NCBI GenBank assembly: GCA_964586735.1
Contig: CAZPIN010000105.1
Coordinates: 1 to 62,686 of the forward strand
Length of the DNA: 62,686 nucleotides
Reading direction: 5' to 3'
Source: an uncultured Rhodobacterales bacterium
Lineage (GTDB): Bacteria; Pseudomonadota; Alphaproteobacteria; Rhodobacterales; CAZPXZ01
Shown here piece by piece: positions 1 to 42,886 of the stretch. Below the pieces are notes generated by a model that had not been told where the DNA came from, did not search any database, and saw only the letters and a list, made by a program, of their open reading frames with translations. Position 1 is the first letter of the stretch. Each line of letters opens with the position of its first letter. The translations under genes were made by a program, and so were the position numbers.

Positions 1-13
1 CCCCCCCCCCCCC
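1..13 (+). repeat. Homopolymeric poly-C tract (at least 13 C, cut by the window edge) directly upstream of the SD and start codon of Calx-beta autotransporter 1
   Basis: Positions 1-13 are all C, followed by gctcAGGGAGGGcgtc and ATG at 30. The same layout (poly-C, SD, ATG) recurs at 7451-7479 before the paralog. Confidence 0.9.
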
Positions 14-29
14 GCTCAGGGAGGGCGTC

Positions 30-3000
30 ATGAGGTGGCTGCGGACGGCGGGACTGCTGCTGGCATTGGCCGGCATGTGGCCGCTTGGCGCGTGGGCGCA
101 GATGGAGATGGATCCAGTGCCGGTTACGCTGGTCAAGAATACGGGTAAAACTGCAACCCTCAACGGAGTAAGCATGATCGCAGAAGCTACGAATGGAGTC
201 GTGGGCGCTCCGGCAGCCGGGTATACCGCCATTGCGCAACCGTTTCGCACTGGAGCGTCGGCTGGCGGCTATGAAATAGAAAGCGTGGATGTATGGAATG
301 ATCGAACATTAACCCACGTATTCCCGTTTGCCACACTTTCCTTTGTGGTTGAAATTGCGGAGGGGAATGCGGCGGGCACTGCGCCGGAAAGCGCCGATGC
401 CAATGTTTTGCACAGATGGACGTATGACAACTTGCAGAGTACAGCGAATCTTCCGGGCGGTGGCAGCGGCACCGCTTTGCGGATTGAGGTGGATGTGGAC
501 GACGGTACGCATGCAGCGCCAAAGGGTGACAGTGAAACAACGCTCTCCCCCAACACCACTTACTTTCTTGTACTAAGGTGGGCCAATATGACGGGTACGG
601 GGAGAGGATTCACTTCAGGTCCTGTTTCGAGAGACACCTTGGCAACTGACGTGGACACGGACAGCGCCAGCGGCTGGAGTCTGCCGGGCATTGTGAGAGG
701 AATTCGCACCCCTGGAACCTGGGTAGACTTTACTTCAGCGTCCAGGCTGTTAATCGATATCGAGGGGCACATACTGCCCCCGCCGGAGATCAGCATCAGC
801 GACGCTGACGCCGTGACGGAGGGCAATGGGGGAACGGGTGAAGCACCTGTATACCTTGAATACCCGGTGTCCATCGACAAGGCTCCGACTGAGCCGGTTA
901 CGGTCAGCTATGCGCCGGTCGCGTATGATCGAGTAAATGGGCCAACCACGGCGACGGCAGGCGAGGACTTTGTGACGGCTGATGCGTCGGGGACGCTGAC
1001 TTGGGAAGCAGGAGATGACACCGACAAGCTGATTAGGGTGCGGGTCATCGGCGACACGCTGTTCGAAATTGACAGAACTACATTTACCGAAACGCAGGAT
1101 GTGGCAATTATGCTGTCTTCGCCGACCGGCGGCGCCACTGTGAACATGGATATGGACACGGCTTCCGGCACTATCACTGATAACGACGCCAAGCCGCAGA
1201 CCACCGCCCGCGTGACAACAGTTGCAGAGGGCGACTCGGGCGATGCGGCCAGAACTCTGGACTTTGTAGTTACAAGGACAGGAGATGCGGACGAGACCGT
1301 TAACATAAGTACCGAAGTTTGGGTCCAAACCACAGCAGGGGTTTTGCCTGGAGAACCAGCCAATTTGGAACTCGCAGCCTATAACACAGATTTTACCATT
1401 GCAGGAGTCTCGGGCATAAGCGAATCCGGTGGGGCCATTGAAGGAGGTATCAGGTGGGGCGCCAACGAATTCGAGAGGACGGTTTCATTGCCTATTGTAC
1501 TGGACAACATTGCCGAGCCGGACAAGTTTATTGGTTTTTCCTTGGTTCGAGGCTCCTATATGGATGTTGTTGGGGGCAGCGGAGACAATGAATTTGAACG
1601 ATACTTCTTCGGCACCCTGACGGACGATGACCGGGGCATATCCATCGACTCGCCGGAAGTTACGGAAGCTAATTCGGGAGCAGACAGCACCCTGATGTAC
1701 ACCGTTTCGCTGGACGGAGTATGGCCGCATGATGTTACCGTGGAATACTTGGTGACCGGCGGCGACGCGGTAGCGGGCACCGACTACAATGCACTGACCC
1801 CCGGTACGCTGACGATTACAGCAGGCAGCACGTCGGGGACGATCGACATTACGGTTCCTGGCGATGGCGACCCCGAACCCGACAAGACGATTGAGGTAAC
1901 GATCCGCAACGCGCAGTGCGCGTCCTGCGCCGCCAATCTTGTGCCCACTATCACTACGGACGTTGGCGTGGGCACCATACGCGACAACGACACCCCCAGA
2001 GTGTCCATCAGCTCGCCAGCCGCCGTGACCGAAAACGCCGGAACGATGACGTTCAATGTTACGCCAGGTTCGGCCCCTACAGCGCAGGGAACTGTCACTT
2101 GGACGGTGTCCAGCACGAGCACGGCCATGGCAGGCACCGCCGCCGATTACACCATCGCGGACGGCAGTGGTACGCCGCTGAGTGGCACGTTGACGTTTCC
2201 GATAGGCGTCCGCACAGCGCAGCCGATCACGGTTGCCATCAACGACGACATGATCCACGAAGCGGAAGAAACCATCGTCATTGACCTTTCCTCACCCAGC
2301 GGGGGTGTCATACTGGACCCGGCGGCGTCCACCGGTACAGGCAGGATCACGGACAACGACCCCATCCCTACGCTGTCCATCAGCAATGCGACGGTCACCG
2401 AAGTCGATACCGGCACCTCTACCCTGAGCTTCACCGTAACGAAGCAGAATCAAACTGCGCTGCCCGCAAGCGTCAGCTACAGCGTAACGGGCGGCACGGC
2501 GACGTCCGGCACCGACTTCACGGCGCCCACGGGCACCTCGCTGGAATTCGCACCCGCCGAAACGCAGAAAACCATCGACATCCTGGTGACCGGTGACAAT
2601 CTGGCGGAAGGCAATGAAACCGTAGAGATCACCCTTGCCAGCCCTTCCGGCGCTACCATCGCAGGCGGCATGGGCGTCGGGATGGGTACCATCACCGACG
2701 ACGACCTTCTGGAGTTCTCTATCGACTCGACGCAGGTGGCGGAGGGCGCTGCCGGGCAAATGCCTACGATGACGCTTACCGTTTCGCTGGCCTCGGACCA
2801 CGCCTACTCCATTTCGGTGCCCTACACCGTCGAGGGCAGCGCTACCTCCGGCACGGACTACCAGGCGATTCCCGCCGGTCCGCTCGTGTTCGCTTCGGGC
2901 GAAAGGACAAAGACAATCACGGTTACGGTTACGGGCGATGACGACTCGGAGCCGAGCGAGACGGTCGAAATCGTCCTGGGCACGCCTACCTGCACGGGCT

Positions 3001-6000
3001 GCCCTACAGGACTGGACCCCAGCGTCGCGGCTGGTATGAGAAGGGGTGTGGCCACCATAACCAATGACGACTCGCCGCTTCTGTCCATCTCCTCGCCAAG
3101 CGTGACCGAGGGCGATATGGGCACCGTAGACCTGACCTATACGGTGACGCTGACTCCGGCGGTGGACGATCAGACAGTAACCGTCAGCTACGCCGTTACG
3201 GGCGGTACGGCGGAGGAAGGCGTCGACTACACGGCCCCGACTGGCAGCACGCTGACCTTCCAGCCCACCGTCACTACGCAGACCTTTACCATTAGCGTTG
3301 TCGGCGACGAGATCCACGAAGGCGACGAAGACGAAACGGTAATCATATCGCTGTCCAATCAAACGCCGGGCATCGAGCTGGCGCTGGAGCCCGGTACCGG
3401 CAGGATTGCCGACAACGACCCAGCCCCCGTGCTTTCCATCGACCCGTCGAGCGTGAGCGTGAGCGAGGGCGACATGGGTACGACGGACCTGGCATTCACG
3501 GTTACCAAGACCGGGAACGAGACGGCGCTGCCCGCGACGGTCAGCTTCGCCGTGGCGGACGGCACGGCGACCGTCGCCGACGGCGACTACGCCGCGCCAT
3601 CCGTCACTTCGCTGACCTTCGCGCCGGCAGACACCACAATGCCAATTACGGTACCGGTCACTGGCGACAACCGCGCCGAGGAGGACGAGGACCTGACCGT
3701 CACGCTCTCCAATCCTGTTGGCGCCACCATCGGCACGGCCATGGGCACCGGCACCATCCTCGACGACGACCCCCTGACGCTCTCCATCAATTCGCCAGAA
3801 GTGCTGGAAGGCGACTCGGGCACCGCGAACCTGACCTTCGAGGTAACGCTGGCGTCGCTGGCTGCCACTCAGGTCACCGTTGCCTATAGCGTGTCGGACG
3901 GTACCGCGACGGTTGCAGACAGCGACTATGCAGCCCCGCCCGACGGCACGCTGACGTTTCCGGCGGGCAGCATGGCCGCGCAGTCGATTTCCGTAACAGT
4001 CAACGGCGACGAGAACAACGAACCCCACGAGACGGTGACCGTGACGCTGTCCAGTCCCACGGGGGGAGCGATGTTCGTTGGCGGCGATACCACGCTCATG
4101 GGTACGGGCACCATTCTGTCCGATGACCTTCCCCTGATCACCGTAAGCTCGCCAAGCGTGCTGGAAGGGCGCACGGGCACGGCGAATCTCGAGTTTGTCG
4201 TGACGATGAGCCAGACTTGGCGGGATGCCGTTACGGTCGCCTATGAGGTCACGGACGGCACGGCCTCGGCTTCTGACGGGGACTATCGCCCGCTGGCCGA
4301 CACGCTGACCTTCGAGGCAAACACCACCGAGCTCCAGCAGACCATCACCGTTACGGTGAATGGCGACCACACTTCTGAAGGGGACGAGACTGTGACGGTT
4401 ACGCTCTCCAGTCCCGTCAACGCGATCTTCGATGGCGGCAGCTCCACGCTTGCAGGCATCGGCACGATACTCTCTGATGACAGGAGGCTGGCCATCAGCT
4501 CCGCGTCGCAGGTGCAGGAAGGCGATCCTGTGCCAGAAGACCAGGTTGCGGGAACCCCTAGATACCTTGAGTACACGGTGACGCTGAGCCCCGCCGCTGG
4601 CGATTCCCCCGTTCAGGTCGGCTACCAGATTACCGATGCCAGTACCGCCACCCCGAACGCGGACTACGGCATGTCGTCTCCCGAAAGCCCGCTGACCTTC
4701 ATGGCGGGCGAAACCTCTAAAACCATCAGAGTCGCGGTCAACGGCGACTACATTGAGGAGGACAGAGAGTCTGTCGAAATCATGCTGGTGCCAGCTGGAA
4801 GCGCCGCCTCCGTAGCGGGCGCCGTGATCGTGACTCGGTCCGCCAGAGCCTACATTCTGCCAAGAAAGCCTTCGGGCAGCTCGGTGCTGTCGGTGCGGCC
4901 GGGGCGTGTATCGAGTGGCGGAGCCGGAGCGGAGCCGACGGTAGACCTGACGTTTGAGATGAATCCGCCGCGGACGTATCCCGTGACGGTTCAATATCAG
5001 GTGCGGCTCCAGAGCGGCGGGTCAGGCTCCTCCCTTGCTAGAGGCGTAGGGTCCCGGATGCTGGGCGTCACCGCTACGGTTGATCTTGCCGCCAATCAGG
5101 GGATGGCGGATATCACCCATCGTCTGGGGACGTCGTTTGACACGGCTAACGCCCGCGATTTGGAGGTGCTGGTCGAGCAGGCACTGGTAGCGTCCAGCGG
5201 CGATCCCGACCCCAACGTCAACATTGCTGGAGTGCAGGCAGCGGTACGGGGAGGCGGCGCGTTTACCAGAGTGGGCGCGACGGACGCCGCTCGGCTTGCG
5301 AGGGGCTTGGGCTACGTGCTGTCCAGCGCAGGAAGGTCGCTTGCCACCGGACTTGTCGATGCGCTCTGGGAGCGCGCTGCGGCCCACCGGGCGGGCAGCG
5401 GAGAGCAGGTCGCCGTACTGGGCGGACGCGCCGTTGACACCGGGGCCTTCGCGCCGGGCACGGACGCCGGCCGGGCGGCGCGGGAAGTAGCCGGGTTGCT
5501 TGGGATCGAGGCCATAGCGCCCTCGGTACAGGCTGCCTCCTACTCCGGTGGCGTCTACGGCGACGGCATCGAATCGTACCGCGAGTGGGCTGGCCTGCCA
5601 GACTCGGGCGACGCGGCGCGACGCAGCCGATTCGCGCTGTCCCTTGGCGGGAGTGCCGTAGGATCCATCACGGCATGGGGTAGGGGCGACATCCGCTCGT
5701 ACGAGAGCGACTTGGCGGATAAGGGTTTTGCGTCCGAGGGGGAATCGTTCGCATGGCTGTTTGGCGTCGACTACCGGTACCAGGAAGACATTGTCGTAGG
5801 GGTGGCGGTCAGTCGGCTGTCGGGTGAGACCGACTACGTATTTGACGATAACGAGGGCGAAGGCGTGGTGGAAACAGGCCTGACCAGCTTCGCGCCATGG
5901 GTGCACTGGACCAATCCCGCCGGATACGTCGGATACGAGGCGTGGGGCAGCTTTGGTACCGGGTCGGGCACGGCGACGGTCGACGAGGACGGCGGCAAGG

Positions 6001-6785
6001 TGGAGACCGACGTAACCACGCGCATCCTGGCCGCCGGAGTGCGGGGAAGGGAGATGCCCTATGGGCGGGCCATAGTGGCGGCGAAGGCTGACATGTATCG
6101 GGCGACCCTGACATCGACCGCGGCGGAGGGCGGCCTTCAGGTGGCGGATGCGGACGGCAACTCTTCCCGCGTGCGGCTGGCTGTGGAGGCCGCGAGCAGC
6201 AGCAGCCTTGAAAGCGGCGAACAGCTCACCGCTGGATTGGACGTAGGAGCGCGGTTTGATGGCGGCGGGGCGGAGAGCGGTATGGGTGCGGATGTAGCGG
6301 TGGACTTCCGCTATGCCCACCCAACCAACGGCATCGAGGTGACGTGGCGGAACAACTGGCTGCTGTTTCATGGCCAAGACGGGTACAAGGAGTCGGCTTT
6401 CAGTCTCGGCGTCGCCTTTGACCCGGGGATATCCGGGCTGGGCTTCCACATGAACCTGGAGCCGTCGTGGAACGCCAGCCATCTGGGTGGCGGGTCGATG
6501 TGGGACTCGGGACCGGCCGCCGGCCTACTGAATCAGACCGGCGATGGCGCGGCCTATCGGGCTCGGCTCGGCTACGGCCTTGGCGCGCTGCGGGGGCGGG
6601 CTCTGGCGACAGCGTACGGCGAAGTCGACGGCGGCGAAGACGCGCGCATGCGACTGGGCGCGGACCTGCGCAACGCGGACAGCGGCATCAGCGCGGTGCG
6701 GCTGGGGATCTACGGGGAGCGCGAGCACAGCGGAGCGCCGGGCGAGGACGACACGATCATGCTGGAGGGGCGGGTCGGTTTTTGA
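30..6785 (+). CDS. Giant Calx-beta-repeat autotransporter-like outer-membrane protein (paralog 1, 2251 aa)
   Basis: SD AGGGAGGG lies 4-5 nt before ATG 30. Signal peptide MRWLRTAGLLLALAGMWPLGAWA/Q. A ~230-aa head is followed by about 11 tandem ~100-aa Calx-beta-like modules. Each module opens like ISISSPxVTEGD, has a core like VxYxVTGGTAxxGxDYxxxxGTLTFxxGxTxxTIxVxVxGDxxxExxETxxVxLS, and closes GTIxDDD. The C-terminal ~390 aa (nt ~5620-6782) shows alternating-hydrophobic strands (AWGRGDIRSY, GVDYRY, RLGYGL) and ends LEGRVGF, as in autotransporter beta-barrels. Confidence 0.88.
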   Translation: MRWLRTAGLLLALAGMWPLGAWAQMEMDPVPVTLVKNTGKTATLNGVSMIAEATNGVVGAPAAGYTAIAQPFRTGASAGGYEIESVDVWNDRTLTHVFPFATLSFVVEIAEGNAAGTAPESADANVLHRWTYDNLQSTANLPGGGSGTALRIEVDVDDGTHAAPKGDSETTLSPNTTYFLVLRWANMTGTGRGFTSGPVSRDTLATDVDTDSASGWSLPGIVRGIRTPGTWVDFTSASRLLIDIEGHILPPPEISISDADAVTEGNGGTGEAPVYLEYPVSIDKAPTEPVTVSYAPVAYDRVNGPTTATAGEDFVTADASGTLTWEAGDDTDKLIRVRVIGDTLFEIDRTTFTETQDVAIMLSSPTGGATVNMDMDTASGTITDNDAKPQTTARVTTVAEGDSGDAARTLDFVVTRTGDADETVNISTEVWVQTTAGVLPGEPANLELAAYNTDFTIAGVSGISESGGAIEGGIRWGANEFERTVSLPIVLDNIAEPDKFIGFSLVRGSYMDVVGGSGDNEFERYFFGTLTDDDRGISIDSPEVTEANSGADSTLMYTVSLDGVWPHDVTVEYLVTGGDAVAGTDYNALTPGTLTITAGSTSGTIDITVPGDGDPEPDKTIEVTIRNAQCASCAANLVPTITTDVGVGTIRDNDTPRVSISSPAAVTENAGTMTFNVTPGSAPTAQGTVTWTVSSTSTAMAGTAADYTIADGSGTPLSGTLTFPIGVRTAQPITVAINDDMIHEAEETIVIDLSSPSGGVILDPAASTGTGRITDNDPIPTLSISNATVTEVDTGTSTLSFTVTKQNQTALPASVSYSVTGGTATSGTDFTAPTGTSLEFAPAETQKTIDILVTGDNLAEGNETVEITLASPSGATIAGGMGVGMGTITDDDLLEFSIDSTQVAEGAAGQMPTMTLTVSLASDHAYSISVPYTVEGSATSGTDYQAIPAGPLVFASGERTKTITVTVTGDDDSEPSETVEIVLGTPTCTGCPTGLDPSVAAGMRRGVATITNDDSPLLSISSPSVTEGDMGTVDLTYTVTLTPAVDDQTVTVSYAVTGGTAEEGVDYTAPTGSTLTFQPTVTTQTFTISVVGDEIHEGDEDETVIISLSNQTPGIELALEPGTGRIADNDPAPVLSIDPSSVSVSEGDMGTTDLAFTVTKTGNETALPATVSFAVADGTATVADGDYAAPSVTSLTFAPADTTMPITVPVTGDNRAEEDEDLTVTLSNPVGATIGTAMGTGTILDDDPLTLSINSPEVLEGDSGTANLTFEVTLASLAATQVTVAYSVSDGTATVADSDYAAPPDGTLTFPAGSMAAQSISVTVNGDENNEPHETVTVTLSSPTGGAMFVGGDTTLMGTGTILSDDLPLITVSSPSVLEGRTGTANLEFVVTMSQTWRDAVTVAYEVTDGTASASDGDYRPLADTLTFEANTTELQQTITVTVNGDHTSEGDETVTVTLSSPVNAIFDGGSSTLAGIGTILSDDRRLAISSASQVQEGDPVPEDQVAGTPRYLEYTVTLSPAAGDSPVQVGYQITDASTATPNADYGMSSPESPLTFMAGETSKTIRVAVNGDYIEEDRESVEIMLVPAGSAASVAGAVIVTRSARAYILPRKPSGSSVLSVRPGRVSSGGAGAEPTVDLTFEMNPPRTYPVTVQYQVRLQSGGSGSSLARGVGSRMLGVTATVDLAANQGMADITHRLGTSFDTANARDLEVLVEQALVASSGDPDPNVNIAGVQAAVRGGGAFTRVGATDAARLARGLGYVLSSAGRSLATGLVDALWERAAAHRAGSGEQVAVLGGRAVDTGAFAPGTDAGRAAREVAGLLGIEAIAPSVQAASYSGGVYGDGIESYREWAGLPDSGDAARRSRFALSLGGSAVGSITAWGRGDIRSYESDLADKGFASEGESFAWLFGVDYRYQEDIVVGVAVSRLSGETDYVFDDNEGEGVVETGLTSFAPWVHWTNPAGYVGYEAWGSFGTGSGTATVDEDGGKVETDVTTRILAAGVRGREMPYGRAIVAAKADMYRATLTSTAAEGGLQVADADGNSSRVRLAVEAASSSSLESGEQLTAGLDVGARFDGGGAESGMGADVAVDFRYAHPTNGIEVTWRNNWLLFHGQDGYKESAFSLGVAFDPGISGLGFHMNLEPSWNASHLGGGSMWDSGPAAGLLNQTGDGAAYRARLGYGLGALRGRALATAYGEVDGGEDARMRLGADLRNADSGISAVRLGIYGEREHSGAPGEDDTIMLEGRVGF

Positions 6786-6791
6786 GGGGCT

Positions 6792-6814
6792 GGCCGCGCA
6801 TGGCTCGCGCGGCC
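6792..6814 (+). terminator. GC-rich stem-loop 7 nt after the stop codon of autotransporter 1 (possible terminator or mRNA-stabilising hairpin; no U-tract)
   Basis: GGCCGCGC (6792-6799), 7-nt loop atggctc, then GCGCGGCC (6807-6814): a perfect 8-bp stem. No T-run follows, so its function is uncertain. Confidence 0.3.
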
Positions 6815-7450
6815 CTGCGCGACCACGGACACCATCGTCGAAGATTGCCGCAGAGGCAGCCTTCACCTGCGCGAAGCGTGAAACGCGAACGCCATTGGCG
6901 GGAGGGAAGCGCCTGCTGGGCGTAGCAGCTTGGCGAAGCTGGAGACGGGGCCATTCGCAACGGATCTGTCGATGGCAGACGCGGTGATGGTAAAGCCGTA
7001 CTGTGCGGCGCATCCCAATGGCGCGTGGAGAAATGACGGGATATTCGTAGCGCCGCTGCTAGCGGCAGCCGTCATCACCATCGTCGCGGCCACCTGTCAG
7101 CCCAGGGCCAGCCTGTGGCGCCACCGAGCATCCTCGCCGCGTACGAGGCGCATCAGGCCTGAGCCCAGCGGGAGGGTACGGGCTGGAAGTAGATACGAGG
7201 CAGCCGAAGGGCGGGGCCGGGACCGAAGTGGCGGGCAGCGCTATACTGGTGACGCTGGGGCGGCTGGCAGCAGCGCATGCGGGCGCAGGTCGACTGGGTG
7301 CATCCGAGTCGGTGGCCGGAAGCCGTACAGGAACTCGTGGCACACGGCGGTTGCCTAGGACGGCGAGGTGGTGCTGCTGCCGAGGCTTGCCGGCGGGTAG
7401 AATGGCGCATGGCGCGCCGCAAAGAGGAGAAAAGCGCATGCTGAAAGCTT

Positions 7451-7460
7451 CCCCCCCCCC
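7451..7460 (+). repeat. Homopolymeric poly-C tract (10 C) between two SD/ATG pairs upstream of Calx-beta autotransporter 2
   Basis: Sequence: aaaGAGGAGaaaagcgcATG(7438)ctgaaagctt-C10(7451-7460)-gactAAGGAGGGtgtcATG(7477). With 10 C the two ATGs are in frame. Confidence 0.9.
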
Positions 7461-7476
7461 GACTAAGGAGGGTGTC

Positions 7477-10400
7477 ATGAAGTGGCTGCGGACAGCGGGT
7501 CTTCTGCTGGCAGCGGCAGGATTTTGGCCGCATGGCGCATGGGCGCAGACGGAGCCGATTCCCGTTACGCTGGTCGAGAATACGGGTCAAACTGCAGTAA
7601 CGAACGGACCTGGCATTGGCGCAAGGGTTACGGGTGATGGCGCGCTTAATCCGGCAATTGGCTATAATGCCTTGGCACAGCCGTTTACGACGGGAGCGTC
7701 TGCTGGCGGCTATGACATTGAAAGCGTCCGTGTGGTGGTTCAAGGGACGTTGTTTCAAGTCACCATTTTTAAGTCCATTGCCTTTGTGATTGAAATTGCA
7801 GAGGGGAATGCGGCGGGAACCGTGCCGGAAACCGCCGAGGCCAATGTTTTGCACAGGTGGACCTTTGACCTGGAAGCTGCCGACACACCCCTTTTTCCAG
7901 ATACAGAGGTGGATGTAGATGACGACAACCACACAACACCGAAGGGAGAAAATCAAACAGTGCTCGCTCCCAATGAGACTTACTTTCTTATTATTAGGTA
8001 TGATGTAACGGGCACAGGAGTTATGGCAGGTCCAAGATTTGAAGCCACCGCGCAGTCAGTCGTGGACAGTACCAGTTCGAGCGGCTGGAGCATGGGCGAG
8101 TTGAGTGTAGTGAATGTAGTTGAAGGTACAGAAAGCTGGCAAGTGCATATTCCAGAGCGTAGGCTGCATCTCGATATCGAGGGGCACGTGGTCCCGCCAC
8201 CGGAGATCAGCATCAGCGACGCCCCCGCCGTGATGGAAGGCGATTCGGGAATGAGCAATGAACTTGTCTATACAGTTTCCATTGACAAGGCCCCGTTGCA
8301 ACGGACAACGGTCAACTACGCGTCCGTCGCGTACAACACGGCCGGACCCACCACTTCGATGGCTGGCGAGGACTTTGTGGCGGCCGATGCAACTGGCATG
8401 CTGACCTGGGAAGCCGGGGATGACACCGATAGGGAGATCAGGGTGCGGGTTATCGGCGATACGCTGCACGAATTAGACATTAATACGTTAGACAGATCGC
8501 AGGACGTAGCTATTATGCTGTCTGCACCGACTGGAGGCGCCACGCTGGCCGCGGGTGGAGACACGGCCTCAGGCACAATCACCGATGACGACGGCAAACC
8601 GCGTGTTTCTGTAAGCGTGGGATCTGCCGCAGAAGGCGACTCGGGTGATGATACCAGAACCCTGGACGCTACGTTTACATGGACAGGAGATACGGATGAA
8701 AGTGAATTTGTGCGTGTTTCATATAATGTGATGACCTTGCCGGGGCTGGCTGGAGAACCCGCCAATCAATCTGTCGCAGTCGAAAACACTGACTATACCA
8801 CTGCAGGCATACAGGACTTGGACGAGTTTCTCGATGGCTTTGTGCAATTTAGTTCTGGCGAACGAGCCAGGACGATTTCATTTCCGATTGTAATGGACAA
8901 TATCGCCGAACCGGACAAGTATCTTGGCGTTGTCTTGACGCAAAATTTCTATGCGGACATATCTGGCAGCGCGGCGACAGACGAAGATCAAGTGGAATAT
9001 TACTTCTATGGCACCCTGACGGACGACGATCGAGGTATATCCATTGACTCGCCGGGAGTGGATGAAGCAGATTCGGGATCCAACATCACCCTGACCTACA
9101 CCGTGTCGCTGGACGGAGAATGGCCGCAGGAGGTTGCCGTGGACTACTCGGTGGCGGCGGAGAGCACGGCTACCTCCGGCACCGACTATGTTGCCCTGGC
9201 AGATGGAACGCTGACGTTTCCGGCAAACAGCAGTACAGCGCAGACGATCACGGTTACGGTTACTGGCGATGACGAGTTCGAGGAAGACGAGACGATTGTT
9301 GTAAGGCTGGCCAACGCGCGGTGCACGACATCCTGCGGAGTCAATCTTGCGCCCACCATCACTACGGCGGATGGCGAGGGCACCATACGCGACAACGACG
9401 ATCCAAGAATATCCATCAGTAACGCCGCAGCTGTGGATGAGGGCGATTCGGGCATGAGCGCCGAACTTGTCTATACGGTGTCCATCTCCGCTGCTCCGAT
9501 GGAGCAGGTAACGGTCAACTACGCGCCCGTCGCGTACAATTCAGCTGGTCCCACCACGGCGACATCTGGCGAGGATTTTGTGGCGGCCGATGCGATGGGC
9601 ACACTGACTTGGGAAGCAGGGGATGACAGTGACAGGGAAATCAGGGTAAGGATTATCGGCGATACGCTGCTGGAGAGAAATTCAGTCACAAGAGACAGGT
9701 CGCAGGATGTGGCCATCATGCTGTCTTCGCCGACTGGCGGCACCACGCTGGCCGCGGGTGGAGACACGGCTACGGGAACAATCACTGATGACGATGACAA
9801 TCTGCAGGTTACGGCACGCGTGGCAAGTGCTGCTGAAGGAGACTCGATCGATACTGCCAGAACCCTGGATGTTGTAATTGCAAAGACAGGAGACACAGAC
9901 GAAAGCTTTAGTTCTTTGGCAGTCGGATATGTTGTTTTATACAGAACGGGGCAGGCTGGAGAGCCCTCCAATTTGGCCATCGCTAGAAATGGCATCGACT
10001 ACACCACTGTAGGCATATCGAATATAAACATGGACCTCGAGGGTATTGTGCAGTTTGGTCCCACCGAGTACGAGCAAACGCTTTCGTTTCCGATTGTAAT
10101 GGACAATATCGCCGAGCCAGACAGGTATCTTGGCATTAGCTTGCAAAGTGGCACCGGCTTCGATCTAACTGGCGGGGCGGGGAATCAATTTGAACAAAAC
10201 TTCTACGGCACCCTGACGGACGACGACCGAGGCATATCCATCGACTCGCCGGGAGTGGATGAGGTCGATACGGGGGCCGACAGTACCCTGACCTACACCG
10301 TTTCGCTTGACGGGGAATGGCCACAGGAGGTTGCCGTGGACTATTCGGTGACGGCGGAAAGCACGGCTACCTCCGGTGCCGACTATGTTGCTTTGGTGGA

Positions 10401-13400
10401 TGGAACGCTGAGGTTTCCAGCAAACAACAGCGCAGCACGGACGATTACGGTAACGGTTACTGGCGATGACGCGTTTGAGGAAGACGAGACGATCATCGTA
10501 AGGCTCGCCAACGCGCGGTGCACGACATCCTGCGGAGCTAATCTCGCGCCATCCATTACTACAGCGGATGGTACGGGGACTATTCGCAATAATGACAGTC
10601 CCAGGATATCCATCAGTGACGCTCCCGCCGTGGACGAGGGCGACTCGGGAATGAGCGCTGAACTTGTCTATACCGTGTCCATCGACGCTGCTCCGCTACA
10701 GCGGGTAACGGTCAACTACGCGCCCGTCGCGTATGCTCGACTCGGGGACACCACGGCCATGGCAGGCGAGGATTTTGTGGCGGCCGATGCGATGGGCACG
10801 TTGACTTGGGAGGCAGGGGATGACACTGACAGGGAGATCAGGGTAAGGATTATCGGCGATACGCTGTACGAGGTAGATAACAATACTCTATCCGCGTCAC
10901 AGGACGTGGCCATCATGTTGTCTTCGCCAACAGGCGGCGCCATGCTGGCCGCGGGTGGAGACACGGCTTCTGGTACAATCACAGATGACGACAGCTTTCC
11001 GCAGATTACTGCCCGCGTGGGGTCCGCCACAGAGGGTGACTCGAGCGATGCGGCGGGAACCTTGGATGTTGTGGTTTCAAGGACAGGAGATACCGACGAA
11101 AGTACCAGCGTTAGCGCCTCATATTTTATCATAAGCGCATCAGGACTGGCTGGAGAGCCTGCAAATCTGGCCGTTGCAGCGCTGGACGCCGACTACACCA
11201 GAACGGGCATTGCTGGTCTAGATGAGTTTCTTGAGGGTAGTATTGGATTTGGCCCCACCGAATATGCGAGAACGCTTTCGTTTCCGATTATACGTGACAA
11301 TGTCGCCGAACCAGACAAGTACTTGGGAATAGCTCTGCTCAATGCTTCAGAAATTGAAATTACTGGTGGTACGCCAGACGATCCAGTTTTGCGAGGCGAA
11401 GTCTACTTCTATGGCACCCTGACGGACGATGATCGAGGCATATCCATCGATTCACCGGAAGTCACGGAGGCCAACACCGGAGCCGACAGCACCCTGACCT
11501 ACACCGTATCGCTGGACGGTGAATGGCCGCAGGAGGTTGCTGTGGACTACTCGGTGGTAACGGCGGACAGTACAGCGGCCTCCGGTACCGACTACGTGGC
11601 TCTGGCCGATGGTACACTGACGTTTCCGATGGGCAGCGCCACTCCGATGACCATTCCCGTGACGGTCACCGGCGACGACGCGTCCGAGGGTGACGAGACG
11701 ATTGTCGTAAGGCTCGCCAATGCACGCTGCACGACGCCCTGCGGAGACAACCTGGCGCCCACCATCACGACGGCGGATGGCGAAGGCACCATACGAGACA
11801 ACGATATCCCCAGAGTGTCCATCAGCTCGCCGGCTGCCGTGACCGAGGGGGACACGACGACCGTTGCGATGAGGTTCAGCGTCAGGCCAAGCGCGGCCCC
11901 GGATGCGCAGGAAACCGTCATTTGGACGGTCTCCAGCACAAGCACGGCCACGGCCGCCGCCGACTACACCATTGCGGGCGCCAGCGGTACGCCGCTGAGC
12001 GGCCAGCTGACGTTTCCCGCTAACCAAATCACGGCGCAGACGGTCACGGTTACGGTCAACGGCGACCTGCTCCACGAAGGGGACGAAACCATCGTCATTG
12101 ATCTTTCATCGCCGAGCGCGGGACTCATACTGGATACGGCGGCGCAGACGGGGACAGGCACGATCACGGACAACGACCCAGCCCCCGTGCTGTCCATCGG
12201 CAATGCGACGGTGGCCGAGGGCGACACCGGCACCGCGACCCTGCGCTACACCGTAGAGAAGGCGGGACAGACCGCGCTGCCTGCAAGCGTCAGCTACAGC
12301 GTGACGGATGGTACGGCGACGTCTGGCACCGACTTCACGGCGCCCACTGGCACCTCGCTGGAGTTCGCTCCCGCCGAAACGCAGAAAATGATCGAAATCC
12401 AGGTAACCGGAGACAACCTGGCCGAAGGCAACGAAACGGTCGAGATCACCCTTGCCAGCCCCAGCGACGCAACCATCGCAAGCGGCATGGCCGTCGGCAC
12501 GGGTACCATCACCGATGACGACCCCCTGGAGTTCTCGATTGATTCCACGCAGGTGGCGGAAGGCGCTGCCGGGGAATCACCCACGATGACGCTGACCATT
12601 TCGCTGGCGTCGGACCACGCCTACACCCTGACGGTGCCCTACACCGTCGAGGGCAGCGCGACTTCCGGTACGGACTATCAGGCGATTCCCGCCGGTCCGC
12701 TTGTGTTCGCTTCGGGCGAAAGGTCAAAGACGGTCACGGTTACCGTCACGGGCGACGACGATTCGGAGCCTAGCGAGACGGTTGAGATCGTCTTGGGCAC
12801 GCCATCCTGCACGGGCTGCCCCACGGGACTGGGGCCAAGCATCGCGATGGGCATGGCCAGAGGTGTCGGCACCATTGCCAATGACGATTCGCCGCTGCTG
12901 TCCATCGACTCGCCAAGCGTAACCGAGGGCGATGCTGGCGTCGTGGACCTGACCTTTACGGTGACGCTGACTCCAGCAGCGGACGATCAGACAGTAACCG
13001 TCAGCTACGGAGTTACGGGCGGCACAGCGACGGCAGGGGACGACTACACGGCCCCGACTGGCAGCACGCTGACCTTCCAGCCCACCGTTACTACGCAGAC
13101 CTTTACCATCAGCGTTGCTGGCGACGAAATCTACGAAGGCGACGAAACGGTCATCGTCGCGCTGTCGAACCAAACGGAGGGCATCGAGCTGGCGACGGCC
13201 CCCGGTACCGGCACGATCACTGACGACGACCCTATGCCCGTGTTCGCCATCGATTCGCCGAGCGTCAGCGAGGGCGACACGGGTACGACGGACCTGACGT
13301 TTACAGTCACCAAGACGGGGGCTACGGCGCTGCCCGCGACGGTCAGCTTCGCCGTGGCGGACGGTACGGCAACCGTCGCCGACAGCGACTACACCGCCCC

Positions 13401-16400
13401 ATCCGACACGTCGCTGGATTTCGCCCCGGCTGACACCACGTTGACGGTTACGGTTTCAGTTACAGGCGACAGCCGCGGCGAGGAGGACGAGACCCTTACC
13501 GTCACTCTCTCCAACGCTACCGGTGCCACCATCGGTACGGCGGTGGGTACTGGCACCATCCTCGACGACGACCCCCTGACGCTCTCCATCGATTCGCCAA
13601 GCGTGCTGGAAGGCGATTCCGGCACCGCGATCCTGACCTTCGAGGTAACGCTGGCATCTCCGCCATCCTCCCAGGTTACCGTCGCATACAGCGTATCGGA
13701 CGGCACGGCGACAGTCGCCGACGGTGACTATGTCGCGCCGCCCGACGGCACGCTGACGTTTCCAGTGGGCAGCATGGTCGCGCAGACATTTGCGGTAACG
13801 GTCAACGGTGACACCAACGCCGAACCCCACGAGACGGTGACCGTGACGCTGTCCAGCCCCACGGGCGGGGCGGGGTTTGCTGGGGACGGCGCCACGCTGA
13901 TGGGCACCGGTACTATCGTATCCGACGATCTTCCCCTGATCGCCGTCAGCTCGCCAAGCGTGCTGGAAGGACGCTCGGGTACGGCGACTCTCGATTTTGT
14001 CGTGACGATAAGCCAGACTTGGCAGGACGACGTTACGGTCGCCTATGAAGTATCGGACGGTACGGCCACGGCTGCCGACGGAGACTACAGTGCGCCGGCT
14101 TCCGCCACCCTGACCTTTGCGGCCAACACCGCAACGCTCGAGCAGACCATCACGGTCACGGTGAATGGCGACAACGTCTCCGAAGGGGACGAGACCGTGA
14201 CGGTGACGCTGTCCAGTCCTGTCAACGCGATCTTCGACGGCGGCAGTCCCACGCTCGTGGGGACCGGTACGATACTCTCGGACGACCGGAGACTGACCAT
14301 CAGCTCCTCATCCGAGGTGCGGGAAGGAGAGCCTGGAGGCGCACCTGCGTATCTTGAGTATACGGTGGCGCTGACCCCGGCGGCTGGCGGTAGCACGGTC
14401 GAAGTCGGCTACCGGATTACGGACGCCAGCACCGCTACCGTCGAGGCTGACTACTCGGCGCCGTCTCCCGAAAGCCCGCTGGTCTTCATGACGGGCGAAA
14501 CCTCCAAAACCATCAGGGTCGCGGTCAACGGCGACTACATCGAGGAGGCAAGGGAGTTTGTCGAGATCATGCTTGTACCGGCCGAGGGTGCCGTCTCTGC
14601 AGCGGGCGCCGTGATCGAGACGGAGCGCGCCAGAGGCTTCATCCTGCCAAGAAAACCCTCTGGCAGCTCCGTACTGTCGGTGCGCCCGGGACGGGTATCG
14701 ACGGGCGATGACGGGGCCGAGCCGGCGCTGGGTCTTTCGTTTGAGATGGATCCGCCGCGGACGTATCCCGTGACGGTCCAGTATCAGGTGCGGCTCCAAG
14801 GCGATGGACCGGGTACTGCCCTTGCGAGAGACGTCGGATTAGGGGCCGTTCTTGCGGGGGACGCCGGATCCCGGGTGCTGGGCGTCACCGCTACAGTTGA
14901 TCTTGCCGCCAGTCAGGGGACGGCGGAGATCGACCATCGTCTTGGGGCGGCGTTCGATGCAGGCAGCGCCCGAAATCTGGAAGTGCTGGTCGAGCAGGTG
15001 CTGGTCGCGTCCAGCGGCGATCCCGATCCCAACGTCAACATCTCCGGTACGCAGGTAGCGGTACGGGGAGGCGGCGCGGTCACCAGAGTCGGCGGCGCAG
15101 ATGCCGCGCGGCTTGCAAGAGGCCTGGGCTACGTGCTGGCCGGCGCCGGGCGGTCGTTTGCCACCGGACTCGTTGACGCGCTCTGGGAGCGGGCGGCAGC
15201 CCACAGGTCGGGGAGCGGCGAGTCGCTTGCCGTGCTGGGCGGCCGCGCCATCGATACAGCCGCCTTCGCGCCGGGTACGGATGCCAGCCGGGCGGCGCGG
15301 GAGGTAGCCGGGCTGTTTGGAGTCGAGGCGGTAGCGCCCTCGGCTCAGTACGAATCCCTCTACGGAAGCGCCTACGGCGACGGTCTTGAAAACTGGCAAG
15401 GAGCGGTCGCATACGCGGACTCCTACTACGACGGCTCCTATGGAGACGGCATCGGGTCGTACCGCGAGTGGGCTGGCCTGCCAGACTCGGGCGACGCGGT
15501 GCGGCGCAGCCGTTTCGCACTGTCCTTTGGCGGGAGCGCCGTCGGATCCATCACCGCTTGGGGAAGGGGCGACATCCGCTCCTACGAGAGCGATTTGGCG
15601 GATTCGGGATTTTCGTCCGAGGGGGATACGGTCGCATGGCTTTTCGGAGTCGACTACAGGTACCAGAAGGACATCGTCGTAGGGGTGGCGGTCAGTCGGC
15701 TTTCGGGCGAGACCGACTACGTATTTGACGAAAATGAAGGCGAAGGCGCGGTGGAAACCGGTCTGACCAGCTTTGCGCCATGGGTGCATTGGACTGGCTC
15801 CGCCGGATACGAGGCCTGGGGCAGCATAGGAGTCGGGTCGGGCACGGCGACGGTCGACGAGGGCGACAGGGCAGCGGAGACCGATGTCACTTCGCGCATC
15901 CTGGCGGCTGGCGTACGGGGAAGGGAGATGTCCTTTGGACAGGCCATTGTGGCGGCAAAGGCCGACGCGTATCGGGCAACCCTGACATCGTCTGCGGCGG
16001 GTGGCGGCCTTCAGGTGGCGGATGCGGACGGCAACTCGTCACGTGTGCGGCTGGCAGTGGAGGCGTCGCGCAACAGCAGCCTGGACAGCGGCGTACAGCT
16101 TGCCGCTGGACTGGACATAGGAGCGCGGTTTGACGGCGGCGCGGCGGAGAGCGGCATGGGGGCGGATGTTGCCCTCGACCTCCGCTACGCCCATCCAGCC
16201 AACGGCATCGAGGTGACGTGGCGCAGCAGCTGGCTGCTGTTTCATGGCCAGGACGGGTACAAGGAGTCGGCCTTCAGCCTCGGTATCGCCTTTGATCCGG
16301 GGATTTCCGGGCTGGGTTTCCACATGAGTCTGAAGCCGTCGTGGAACGCCGCCCATCTGGGCGGCGGGTCGCTGTGGGACTCGGGGCCAACTGCTGATGT

Positions 16401-16662: not shown

Positions 16663-17052
16663 GGGACGGGCTGCCTATGCTGGCGGCCGCCTGCACCGAT
16701 GCGAACGCTGTTGAGGGGATACACCGTACGGTGAACCTGGACTCGTAGAGAGAGAGCTAAGCATGACTCCATCGGCGGGGGATGTCCGCCTTCGTTGAGG
16801 AGCGGCCTGCGGGCGAAGCTGGGATGAGCGCTTGACCGGTCGAACTTGTCGATGGCAGATGCTATGATGGTCGAGATGCCCAACCCACGATATCCCAATA
16901 GCTCACGGGATTGCGGTTTCACAGTGATATGGCAGTCATCACTAGACATCCAGAAATTTCGAGGTTGACCACGTGAAGCAAACTGTGCTAGAAGTACCCG
17001 ACAACCAGACTGTCTAGACAGTCTACCCACCACATCTTAGGGAGTGGCGAGA

Positions 17053-32740: not shown

Positions 32741-33027
32741 GGCCGTCGGTTTGTACCAGTCCCCAGCGGGGCTGCCAGGCATAGGCATTCCGCATCGGAA
32801 GCCGCCACGTTTCCCGGCGGCCTTTCCTTCCTTCGCGGGAAGGTCCAGCGCGCGCGGTTCGTTCCTATCTGAGGCGCGGGTAAGGTTCGCGCGCGCAGGC
32901 TCGATACCGCCGACGCCGCTGCTTTGGTCCCTGCTATCCGTAAGTATGTCGGTAAACCGTCTGGATTTCCGCTATCCTGCGTCGCCAGTACATGGGTCAT
33001 GAGGACCGGAGCGCAGGGGAGGACAGT

Positions 33028-34581: not shown

Positions 34582-34845
34582 GGCCGTCCGCCCTCGACGG
34601 CCTGCTGCGGATTGCGGCTCGTTTTGTGGCAGAGACTGCCGCGCTGGTGGCAGTTCCCGGGTCTCTGCGCTTCAGCACCCTCGATACACGGCATGGCCAG
34701 CGCGTCGATTTCTACAGTGCCTTCCGTCCGCATTGCCCAGCGGGGCGGGCGCATTGCCAAACGCCATACAAGGGTGAAGCCGCTTGCGCCGCTGCCGCAG
34801 CCCGTCTATGCTGACATGAAAGAGATCCCCCTGGAGAAACCTGAT

Positions 34846-36850: not shown

Positions 36851-36952
36851 GCGCCCCTCGACGAGGGCGTCCGCGAGGAGATCGATGCATTTGCCGCCCG
36901 CCGCACCGAGGAGGGCGGCGCACCCGCCAGCATTTGCAGCAGTCCGCCCTCG
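36851..36952 (+). pseudogene. Relic of the 3' end of a third mttB-family copy (last ~25 codons plus downstream bases)
   Basis: gcgcccctcgacgagggcgtccgcgaggag (36851-36880) matches mttB copy 1 at 32654-32683 in 30/30 positions. gcccgccgcaccgaggagggcggcgc matches in 26/26. gtccgccctcg matches the sequence just after the copy 2 stop. It translates to APLDEGVREEIDAFAARRTEEGGAP, against APLDEGVREELEAFVARRTEEGGAPTDF in the intact genes. Confidence 0.75.
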
Positions 36953-36983
36953 CGGGCGCGCGCAAGCCATAAGGAACAGATCA

Positions 36984-42787: not shown

Positions 42788-42886
42788 TCCGCAGCGGATG
42801 GACGCTGCCTAGATGAGCCTTCGCGTCCGCCATCGGCGGCTGTGCCGCGCCCCGGGCATGTCGGCGGCTCCAAACGCGCGCATCGC

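What the first reader, a model, noticed from the sequence alone, without database searches (positions are those of the whole stretch)
1..32. Poly-C tract (at least 13 C) next to the ribosome-binding site of Calx-beta autotransporter 1
Seen: positions 1-13 are a pure C run, and 16 nt further on (through the SD AGGGAGGG) is ATG 30 of a 2251-aa surface protein. The reading frame stays open backwards through the tract (..PPPPLREGV-MRWL). Established: G/C homopolymers of this length are classic slipped-strand contingency switches for surface proteins, e.g. Bordetella fim promoters and Neisseria opc or pgl genes. Inference: expression of this gene may be phase-variable. The true tract length and the promoter lie outside the window.
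Basis: partly seen in the sequence, partly recalled or inferred. Interest (0 to 1): 0.65.

Follow-up and report, generated by a model that had tools for sequence, protein, structure and literature searches.

The report
Slippery poly-C run before adhesin gene
A run of at least 13 C's sits 16 bases before the start of a giant surface-protein gene in an uncultured sponge-associated bacterium; it is real, and relatives carry C-runs of other lengths at the same spot, so it is probably a mutation-prone expression dial of a known kind, though switching could not be shown.

Summary
Window 1-13 is C13, then 16 nt containing AGGGAGGG, then ATG 30 of a 2251-aa Calx-beta protein. The window is a whole contig, so the tract is cut by the contig end.

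It is not an artefact. The tandem paralogue has C10 at the same offset (7451-7460, ATG 7477). More distant relatives have C8, C7 and C5 at the homologous leader site. A ~90% relative in another sponge study has an interrupted C5-TACT-C4.

Logan contigs recover the missing upstream flank of gene 1: an intact thiS-like gene, then the same SD1-ATG1 as upstream of gene 2. The tract therefore lies between two SD-ATG pairs and not in a -35/-10 spacer. Its length sets the frame of ATG1 relative to the ORF, giving three states:
- an in-frame Pro-rich extension;
- a stop at the ATGA overlap;
- an out-of-frame run 116 nt past ATG2.

Two assemblers both break inside the gene-1 tract. The C10 tract assembles identically in three samples.

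Within-population length variation and any effect on expression could not be tested, because only contigs and no RNA runs were available. The verdict is a plausible contingency tract, probably graded and not on/off, and a new member of a known kind. "Autotransporter" rests on architecture only.

The parts
1..13 (+). Poly-C tract of gene 1 (at least 13 C, truncated by the contig end)
   Evidence: The Logan contig of run X1 begins at position 4, inside the tract.
18..25 (+). Shine-Dalgarno sequence SD2 (AGGGAGGG), 4 nt before ATG 30
   Evidence: Conserved in gene 2 (AAGGAGGG, 7465-7472) and in the X4 relative (CAGGGAGGG).
30..6785 (+). Gene 1: 2251-aa Calx-beta repeat protein with an N-terminal signal-peptide-like segment and a C-terminal predicted beta-barrel ending in F
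   Evidence: No Pfam or PDB match for the barrel.
30..98 (+). Predicted Sec signal peptide MRWLRTAGLLLALAGMWPLGAWA, with a putative cut before Q24 (judged by eye; no predictor was run)
   Evidence: Aligned with the gene 2 N-terminus.
31..33 (+). TGA overlapping ATG2 (ATGA). It stops a reading frame that enters from the tract in the +2 frame
   Evidence: The same ATGA overlap is present in gene 2 (7477-7480), L002 and L003.
146..148 (+). TAA, the first stop for the third frame entering from the tract. That frame overruns ATG2 by 116 nt
7321..7400 (+). Relic of the 3' end of a thiS-like gene (..PYRNSWHTAVA*DGEVVLLPRLAGG*). It marks the start of the duplicated unit shared with the unassembled upstream flank of gene 1
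   Evidence: L001 has an intact thiS ending in EVVLLPRLTGG*.
7424..7429 (+). Upstream Shine-Dalgarno sequence SD1 (GAGGAG) of gene 2. An identical 30-mer (7413-7442) is present in the contig that represents the upstream flank of gene 1
7438..7440 (+). Upstream start ATG1, in frame with ATG2 at C10. The public gene call for gene 2 (3074 aa) starts here
7451..7460 (+). C10 tract of paralogue gene 2, homologous to 1-13
   Evidence: C10 without gaps in the contigs of runs X1, X2 and X3.
7477..16662 (+). Gene 2: 3061-aa paralogue. Identity to gene 1 is 56% in the head and 84% in the barrel

Best explanation
The poly-C run is a genuine, slippage-prone homopolymer in the 5' leader or first codons of a giant Calx-beta surface-protein gene.

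The layout is inferred for gene 1 from its paralogue and from the recovered upstream contig: thiS-like gene stop, 23 nt, SD1 (GAGGAG), 8 nt, ATG1, about 11-13 nt, C(n), 16 nt containing SD2 (AGGGAGGG), then ATG2 and a Sec signal peptide.

Slipped-strand mispairing during replication changes n. This changes the frame of ribosomes that start at ATG1, giving three states:
1. In frame: a pre-protein with a Pro-rich N-terminal extension (MLKA-Pn-LREGV-MRWL...).
2. +2 frame: a short leader peptide that stops at the TGA of the ATGA overlap, allowing coupled re-initiation at ATG2.
3. +1 frame: an out-of-frame read that overruns SD2/ATG2 by 116 nt and should interfere with initiation there.

Because ATG2 keeps its own strong SD, the expected result is a heritable, reversible, graded change in the amount of the adhesin-like protein, and possibly in its export kinetics. 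It would not be a strict ON/OFF switch.

Shown: the anatomy, the positional conservation, the length differences between copies, and the frame consequences. Inferred: the switching itself, the use of ATG1, and any effect on expression.
For: **The tract is real and unusual.**
- C13 is expected 0.0045 times in the window. The two longest homopolymers in the window sit at homologous sites, each 16 nt before the ATG of the two tandem paralogues.

**Length differs at the homologous leader position in copies and relatives.**
- Gene 1 has at least 13 C and gene 2 has C10.
- L001 has C8, preceded by GAGGAG-N7-ATG and followed by AGGGGAG.
- L002 has C7, followed by GATAGGAGG...ATG.
- L003 has C5 directly after ATGCTG.
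- The ~90% relative in run X4 has C5-TACT-C4.
- The more distant L004 has no tract.

**The upstream flank of gene 1 was recovered.**
- A 447-nt Logan contig at genome-like depth (8.7x) is about 93% identical to 7321-7442 and shares the exact 30-mer carrying SD1 and ATG1.
- It continues upstream as an intact thiS-like ORF (RGVSVTVDGEPYRNSWHTAVAEDSEVVLLPRLAGG*). This is the same synteny as in L001.

**The ATG1 frame.**
- It is open and in frame with the main ORF in gene 2, L001, L002 and the X4 relative (42 nt from ATG1 to ATG2).
- It ends at the ATGA overlap in L003.

**Assembly behaviour.**
- Two assemblers, the MAG assembler and Logan at k=31, both stop inside the gene-1 tract. The contig on the upstream side also does not reach it.
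- The C10 tract and the interrupted X4 tract are assembled through.

**Published precedent.**
- G/C tracts of 8 nt or more are mostly variable in N. meningitidis (PMC5084427).
- The G(n) tract 29 bp upstream of M. catarrhalis uspA1 gives graded expression (PMC7302503).
Against: - No length heterogeneity was observed. Only consensus contigs of 2021-2023 runs were available, and the gene-2 tract is C10 in all three samples of the source study.
- The assembly break at gene 1 can equally come from Illumina quality loss in a long G/C homopolymer at about 10x coverage.
- ATG2 has its own near-perfect SD. Frame changes upstream may therefore have little effect, and the mature protein after signal-peptide cleavage would be identical in all states.
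- An abundant close relative has an interrupted, non-slippery C-rich segment at the same place. A long pure run is therefore not required.
- The 8 or so bases between ATG1+5 and the gene-1 tract, and the true n, are unknown. The current frame state of gene 1 cannot be given.
- No promoter or transcription start site was mapped, and no RNA run holds the locus.
Confidence: 0.5

Rival explanations
1. The C-run is a structural or coding leader element with neutral length drift. It is kept because it pairs with the G-rich SD2 as an anti-SD hairpin that is opened by ribosomes coming from ATG1, or because it encodes a Pro-rich N-terminal extension or leader peptide. Its length drifts by slippage without serving as a heritable switch.
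For: - In five leaders the minimum-energy fold pairs the C-run with the adjacent GGGAGGG/GGAGG motif, at -8.5 to -10.6 kcal/mol. The predicted probability that SD2 is paired is about 0.83 and does not change with n above about 8.
- The X4 relative replaces the pure run with C5-TACT-C4. Its CUCCC is an exact complement of the GGGAG in SD2, and the ATG1 frame is preserved (MLKAPPTPRRREG.).
- The C10 tract is invariant across three samples.
Against: - The folds are no better than dinucleotide shuffles, with z-scores from -0.7 to +0.9. The pairing follows from composition alone.
- A structural role needs only about 5-6 C's. It does not explain pure runs of 10 and at least 13.
- Such long G/C runs are intrinsically unstable, so they would be expected to mutate or be interrupted unless tolerated or favoured.
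Confidence: 0.3
2. The tract is a transcriptional phase-variation element of the promoter type, as in Bordetella fim, Neisseria opc and porA, and T. pallidum tpr. It would lie inside or immediately upstream of the core promoter, and its length would set promoter strength.
For: - This is the most common precedent for homopolymers just upstream of outer-membrane protein genes.
- In T. pallidum tpr paralogues the poly-G ends 4 nt before the transcription start and is followed by an RBS (PMC7864442).
- uspA1 tract length changes mRNA level (PMC7302503).
Against: - No sigma-70-like -35/-10 pair was found around the homologous gene-2 tract.
- Only 16 nt, filled by SD2, separate the tract from ATG2.
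- A conserved SD1-ATG1 lies directly upstream, and the ATG1 frame is kept open through the tract in several lineages.
- Promoters of this uncultured lineage are unknown, so this reading is not excluded.
Confidence: 0.1
3. The tract is a sequencing or assembly artefact at a contig end, for example poly-G tails from two-colour chemistry, and there is no long tract in the genome.
For: - The run sits exactly at the contig end.
- No contig crosses it.
- Both assemblies derive from the same reads.
Against: - A C10 run lies internally at the homologous site of the paralogue, with the same 16-nt spacing, and is assembled identically in three runs.
- Relatives from other studies carry C7, C8 or a C-rich segment there.
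- An artefact would need several fragments to end at the same base.
Confidence: 0.03

Closest known systems
Moraxella catarrhalis uspA1 G(n) tract (PMC7302503)
   Same: A G/C homopolymer of about 6-12 nt lies a few tens of bases upstream of the ORF of a large surface adhesin (29 bp upstream of the ORF). It differs in length between strains and gives graded, not all-or-none, expression.
   Different: In uspA1 the effect was measured at mRNA level, and switching was shown by fragment analysis. Here nothing was measured. In addition, the tract here lies between two SD-ATG pairs, so a translational effect is more likely.
Treponema pallidum tpr gene family poly-G tracts (PMC7864442)
   Same: Paralogous outer-membrane protein genes each carry a homopolymer of different length at the same upstream position. 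In both cases the annotation of the true start codon and signal peptide is confused by the tract.
   Different: The tpr tracts sit just upstream of the transcription start and modulate the promoter. Here a conserved start codon with its own SD precedes the tract.
Intragenic 5' homopolymer switches, e.g. Gardnerella nanH3 poly-C (bioRxiv 10.1101/2020.09.16.300947), and Neisseria and Campylobacter contingency genes
   Same: A poly-C run of 8-14 lies near the 5' end of a secreted or surface protein gene. Its length sets the reading frame, and an alternative start codon is involved in annotation.
   Different: In nanH3 the tract follows the signal peptide, so frameshifts truncate the protein (true ON/OFF). 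Here the tract precedes the signal peptide, and a second SD-ATG downstream can rescue expression.
Helicobacter pylori tlpB leader G-repeat targeted by the sRNA RepG (PMC8295292)
   Same: A variable homopolymer in an mRNA leader acts post-transcriptionally through base pairing and gives gradual control.
   Different: That system needs a trans-acting C/U-rich sRNA, and none is known here. The only candidate partner here is the cis SD2 sequence, and the fold support is not significant.
Bordetella pertussis fim2/fim3 and Neisseria meningitidis opc/porA promoter tracts (own knowledge; discussed in PMC7864442)
   Same: Poly-C or poly-G runs of about 10-15 nt control surface-protein genes through slipped-strand mispairing.
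   Different: Those tracts lie within or next to the -35/-10 region. That placement was tested here and not found (and the leader anatomy).

Membership tests
Simple-sequence contingency locus (phase variation by slipped-strand mispairing) | Uninterrupted homopolymer long enough to slip (about 8 nt or more for G/C) | tested here: met
   C13 or longer at 1-13 and C10 at 7451-7460. The threshold is from PMC5084427.
Simple-sequence contingency locus (phase variation by slipped-strand mispairing) | The tract is placed where its length can change expression (promoter, leader or 5' coding region) | tested here: met
   The tract lies between SD1-ATG1 and SD2-ATG2, and there are three distinct frame outcomes.
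Simple-sequence contingency locus (phase variation by slipped-strand mispairing) | Length polymorphism at the same site between paralogues, strains or relatives | tested here: met
   Lengths of >=13, 10, 8, 7 and 5, plus an interrupted C5-TACT-C4.
Simple-sequence contingency locus (phase variation by slipped-strand mispairing) | Length heterogeneity within one population or clone | tested here: inconclusive
   Only Logan consensus contigs were available. C10 is invariant in three samples. The gene-1 tract is not crossed by any contig. That fits heterogeneity, but it equally fits poor sequencing of a long homopolymer.
Simple-sequence contingency locus (phase variation by slipped-strand mispairing) | Expression or phenotype changes with tract length | not testable with these tools
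   No RNA runs hold the locus, and the organism is uncultured.
Promoter-spacer homopolymer switch (fim, opc, porA type) | The tract lies between or overlaps the -35 and -10 elements | tested here: not met
   No sigma-70-like site was found in 6700-7600. SD1-ATG1 lies upstream and SD2-ATG2 lies 16 nt downstream. Caveat: only the E. coli-type consensus was scanned.
Type Va (classical) autotransporter | C-terminal beta-domain matching the Pfam Autotransporter family or a solved autotransporter barrel | tested here: not met
   No Pfam family at E<=5 for residues 1780-2251. No PDB sequence match for the profile of five relatives.
Type Va (classical) autotransporter | Architecture: N-terminal Sec signal peptide, passenger domain, C-terminal beta-barrel ending in an aromatic residue | tested here: inconclusive
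   A signal-peptide-like N-terminus and a terminal F are present. The AF2 model has a mean pLDDT of only 51 but consists almost entirely of long antiparallel strands. The passenger is made of Calx-beta repeats.

The most novel reading that the evidence does not exclude
The thiS-leader-C(n)-SD2 module is a dual-start, three-state translational rheostat. It is conserved in a clade of giant Calx-beta surface proteins of sponge symbionts. Homopolymer length selects between a long Pro-rich signal-peptide isoform, coupled re-initiation at an ATGA overlap, and an overrunning out-of-frame read that occludes the main start. This would let an uncultured symbiont population stochastically vary the dose or export of its host-contact adhesins. 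It would be contingency-locus behaviour in a mutualist and not in a pathogen.
Probability: 0.2. Interest if true: 0.6.

Novelty: new member of a known kind. Interest (0 to 1): 0.4.

Why it matters
Hypermutable homopolymers that vary surface proteins are well known in host-adapted pathogens. They are hardly documented in uncultured symbionts of marine invertebrates. In the library searched, the single paper that contained "phase variation", "homopolymeric", "sponge" and "symbiont" together was about an unrelated gut bacterium.

If the tracts before these tandem giant adhesin-like genes really switch, sponge symbionts would use stochastic surface variation in dealing with host or phage. The locus would also give a simple marker, tract length, for following symbiont subpopulations.

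On the practical side, the finding explains why the MAG contig ends here. It also flags an ambiguous start-codon annotation: the public gene call for gene 2 starts at the upstream ATG.

Tried and rejected
The rest of the genome could not be searched for the upstream contig, for other tracts or for mismatch-repair genes.
Tract lengths of the relatives could not be compared across samples.

**Searches that found nothing.**
- The search for related loci with the N-terminal head (A2) and with the barrel (A4) found nothing in genome contigs or metagenome contigs. A3 was too diverse to use as a query.
- Exact look-up of gene 1's protein found nothing.
- The head domain has no homologue other than gene 2, either as a region of the full protein or as a stand-alone 260-aa query.
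- P0007 and P0008 are not on record as contigs.
- The thiS protein of L001 occurs on one contig only.
- No RNA run holds the locus, and no further DNA runs were found.

**Analyses with weak or negative results.**
- The anti-SD hairpin was folded for five leaders. The C-run pairs with SD2 every time, but no better than in shuffles, so this is kept only as a rival.
- Rfam gave only a sub-threshold sX5 match (21.9 bits against a cutoff of 50). I regard it as chance.
- The promoter and terminator scan of 6700-7600 found nothing. The TAGAAT that looked like a -10 box is the thiS stop codon plus AAT.
- The AF2 model of the barrel was too weak (pLDDT 51) to justify a fold search.

**Rejected.** The poly-G artefact reading is rejected because of the paralogous C10 tract and the runs in relatives.
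Full report
**Observation**

Window positions 1-13 are thirteen C's. They are followed by GCTCAGGGAGGGCGTC, which contains AGGGAGGG at 18-25, and then by ATG 30. That ATG opens an ORF to 6785 encoding 2251 aa.

From base composition, a C13 run is expected 0.0045 times in the window, and it is the longest homopolymer present. The contig that carries the neighbouring gene is 62,686 nt long, the same as the window. The tract is therefore cut by a contig end, and 13 is a minimum.

The protein has ten Calx-beta stretches. Its N-terminus looks like a Sec signal peptide (MRWLRTAGLLLALAGMWPLGAWA|Q), judged by eye. Its C-terminal ~470 aa are predicted to be almost entirely long antiparallel strands and end in F. 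The model is weak, however (pLDDT 51), and there is no Pfam or PDB sequence match. "Autotransporter" therefore describes the architecture and is not a tested family membership.

**The tract is real**

The second-longest homopolymer of the window is C10 at 7451-7460. It lies before the tandem paralogue, gene 2 (ATG 7477..16662, 3061 aa), with exactly the same layout:
- gene 2: C10 + GACTAAGGAGGGTGTC + ATG AAG TGG CTG CGG
- gene 1: C>=13 + GCTCAGGGAGGGCGTC + ATG AGG TGG CTG CGG

The motif of a C-run followed by a G-rich SD occurs nowhere else in the window.

The window comes from a sponge metagenome. In three runs of that study, the Logan contigs carry the gene-2 tract as C10 without gaps. A poly-G read artefact at a contig end therefore cannot explain the gene-1 tract.

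**What lies upstream**

Upstream of the gene-2 tract there is a second ribosome-binding arrangement: GAGGAG (7424-7429), 8 nt, then ATG 7438. At C10 this ATG is in frame with ATG 7477 (MLKASPPPTKEGV-MKWL...). The public gene call for gene 2 (3074 aa) starts there.

Positions 7359-7400 read DGEVVLLPRLAGG*, which is the C-terminus of a ThiS/MoaD-like protein. It is preceded by an in-frame TAG and so is a relic. The TAGAAT that looks like a -10 box is this stop codon plus AAT.

When Logan contigs were laid on 7250-7560 at 80% likeness, all three runs showed a second, paralogous contig. In X1 it is 447 nt long at 8.7x depth.
- It matches 7321-7442 with about nine differences.
- It ends on the exact shared 30-mer 7413-7442, which contains SD1 and ATG1.
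- Upstream of 7321 it diverges from the window.
- Reconstructed from the listed differences, it encodes an intact ThiS-like C-terminal half, RGVSVTVDGEPYRNSWHTAVAEDSEVVLLPRLAGG*. This is close to the ThiS of relative L001 (DRGVSVSVDGELYRHSWQTAVSDDSEVVLLPRLTGG*).

This contig is most plausibly the missing upstream flank of gene 1. Gene 1 would then be preceded by thiS, the same SD1-ATG1, and then the tract. Gene 2 arose by tandem duplication of a unit that starts about 80 nt inside thiS.

The only unassembled piece is the tract plus about 8 nt before it. Both the MAG assembler and Logan (k=31) stop inside the tract. The Logan contig starts at window position 4.

**Relatives**

The N-terminal head has no homologue apart from gene 2. 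The barrel region finds relatives, and their contigs show the same leader module:
- L001 (52% barrel identity): thiS, then GAGGAG-N7-ATG, 25 nt, C8, AGGGGAG.
- L002 (48%): ATG GCT GAA AGG..., C7, GATAGGAGG, with ATG 18 nt after the run and the two ATGs in frame.
- L003 (44%): a degenerate thiS 3' relic, AAGGAA-N5-ATG CTG C5, and a leader ORF that ends at a TGA overlapping the main ATG.
- L004 (36%): no tract.
- Run X4, from another sponge study, at 125-140x depth: an approximately 83-93% identical locus whose coding sequence resembles gene 1. Its leader reads ATGCTGAAAGC-A-CCCCC-TACT-CCCC-GACG-CAGGGAGGG-CAT. This is an interrupted C-rich segment that was assembled through. ATG1 and ATG2 are 42 nt apart and in frame (MLKAPPTPRRREG.).

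At one homologous position the series is therefore >=13, 10, 8, 7, 5 and an interrupted form. This is the pattern expected of a slippage-prone site. It also shows that a long pure run is not obligatory.

**Frame consequences for gene 1**

A ribosome entering from the tract meets one of three fates:
- It stays in frame with ATG2 (..PPPLREGV-MRWL..).
- It stops at TGA 31-33, which overlaps ATG2.
- It runs out of frame to TAA 146-148, 116 nt past ATG2.

Gene 2 has the same first two outcomes. In the third frame it stops at TAA 7464-7466, inside SD2. All four leaders with a clear ATG2 have the ATGA overlap.

Because the bases between ATG1 and the gene-1 tract, and the true n, are unknown, the present state of gene 1 cannot be given.

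**Mechanism**

The anatomy argues against a promoter-spacer switch of the fim/opc type:
- No sigma-70-like promoter was found around the homologous gene-2 tract.
- SD2 fills the 16 nt between the tract and ATG2.
- A conserved SD1-ATG1 precedes the tract, and its frame is kept open through it in several lineages.

I therefore favour a leader or first-codon homopolymer whose length sets the relation between an upstream start and the main ORF. The expected effect is graded, because ATG2 has its own strong SD.

A rival reading is that the C-run matters as an anti-SD partner of GGGAGGG or as Pro codons, and that its length merely drifts. In favour of the rival:
- All five leaders fold with the C-run paired to SD2.
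- The interruption in the X4 relative creates an exact complement (CUCCC/GGGAG).

Against it:
- The fold energies equal those of shuffles (z-scores -0.7 to +0.9).
- Five or six C's would suffice for pairing.

**What could not be tested**

- Within-population heterogeneity. Only consensus contigs at 4-10x were available, and no raw reads.
- Transcription start. No RNA run holds the locus.
- Expression.

The break of two assemblies at the gene-1 tract fits heterogeneity. It fits sequencing failure in a long G/C run equally well.

**Comparison with known systems**

- The closest analogue is the G(n) tract 29 bp upstream of M. catarrhalis uspA1. It is a surface adhesin with graded expression and lengths of 6-11 between strains (PMC7302503).
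- The T. pallidum tpr family shares the feature of paralogous OMP genes that each carry a tract of different length, but there the tract is at the promoter (PMC7864442).
- Gardnerella nanH3 shares a 5' poly-C of 8-14, but that tract lies after the signal peptide and gives true ON/OFF switching.
- In N. meningitidis, homopolymers of 8 nt or more were predominantly variable in deep sequencing (PMC5084427).

**Verdict**

This is a new member of a known kind. Interest is moderate, mainly because the host is an uncultured sponge symbiont and because of the two-start layout.

I found the C10 tract independently before reading that note. I checked its claim about relatives myself.

Noticed in passing
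window 7321-7400: Relic of the 3' end of a thiS/MoaD-like gene (PYRNSWHTAVA*DGEVVLLPRLAGG*), with an in-frame TAG at 7356-7358. It marks the 5' boundary of the tandem duplication that created gene 2. The copy upstream of gene 1, which is off the contig, appears intact.
   Followed up: yes
window 7438-7476; L001 1165-1560; L002 2001-2300: Gene callers start these genes at the upstream ATG. In L001 and L002 the frame stays open for roughly 80-140 codons between the C-run and the recognisable signal peptide (GFGRLLWVAVCALLFASLELYSSSANA in P0004). This is unlikely by chance and remains unexplained. It could be a long N-terminal extension or a rearranged leader.
   Followed up: partly
window 5367-6782 and 15244-16659: The C-terminal ~470-aa predicted beta-barrel of these proteins has no Pfam family (E<=5) and no PDB sequence match, although it has many relatives in metagenomes (47 hits). 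It is an uncatalogued outer-membrane anchor family.
   Followed up: partly
window 34612-36462 and 49596-51146; L003 9223-10773: Genes of the type AAA-ATPase_like (PF09820) plus PDDEXK_9 (PF08011) occur twice in the window and again directly downstream of the related giant gene in L003. The association with the giant surface-protein genes may be more than chance.
   Followed up: no
run X4 laid on window 17-286 and 7330-7554: A different sponge study holds a relative at 125-140x depth that is about 83-93% identical. It has at least two downstream variants branching after the shared 30-mer at window-equivalent 12-41. This could reflect paralogues or strain variants of the head domain.
   Followed up: partly
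window 6967-7000 and 16846-16880: The sequence downstream of gene 1 and of gene 2 shares a conserved core (GTCGATGGCAGA.GC..TGATGGT). The duplicated unit therefore also included the 3' flank.
   Followed up: no
window 7435-7503: Sub-threshold Rfam match to the Xanthomonadaceae sRNA sX5 (21.9 bits, cutoff 50). It is probably caused by the C-run/G-run composition.
   Followed up: no
window 32992-34581, 36885-39410, 42842-45166: The metabolic neighbours are an MttB-family methyltransferase, a DAO/GCV_T (dimethylglycine-dehydrogenase-like) fusion and a molybdopterin-dependent dehydrogenase. This fits a methylated-amine-using marine symbiont.
   Followed up: no
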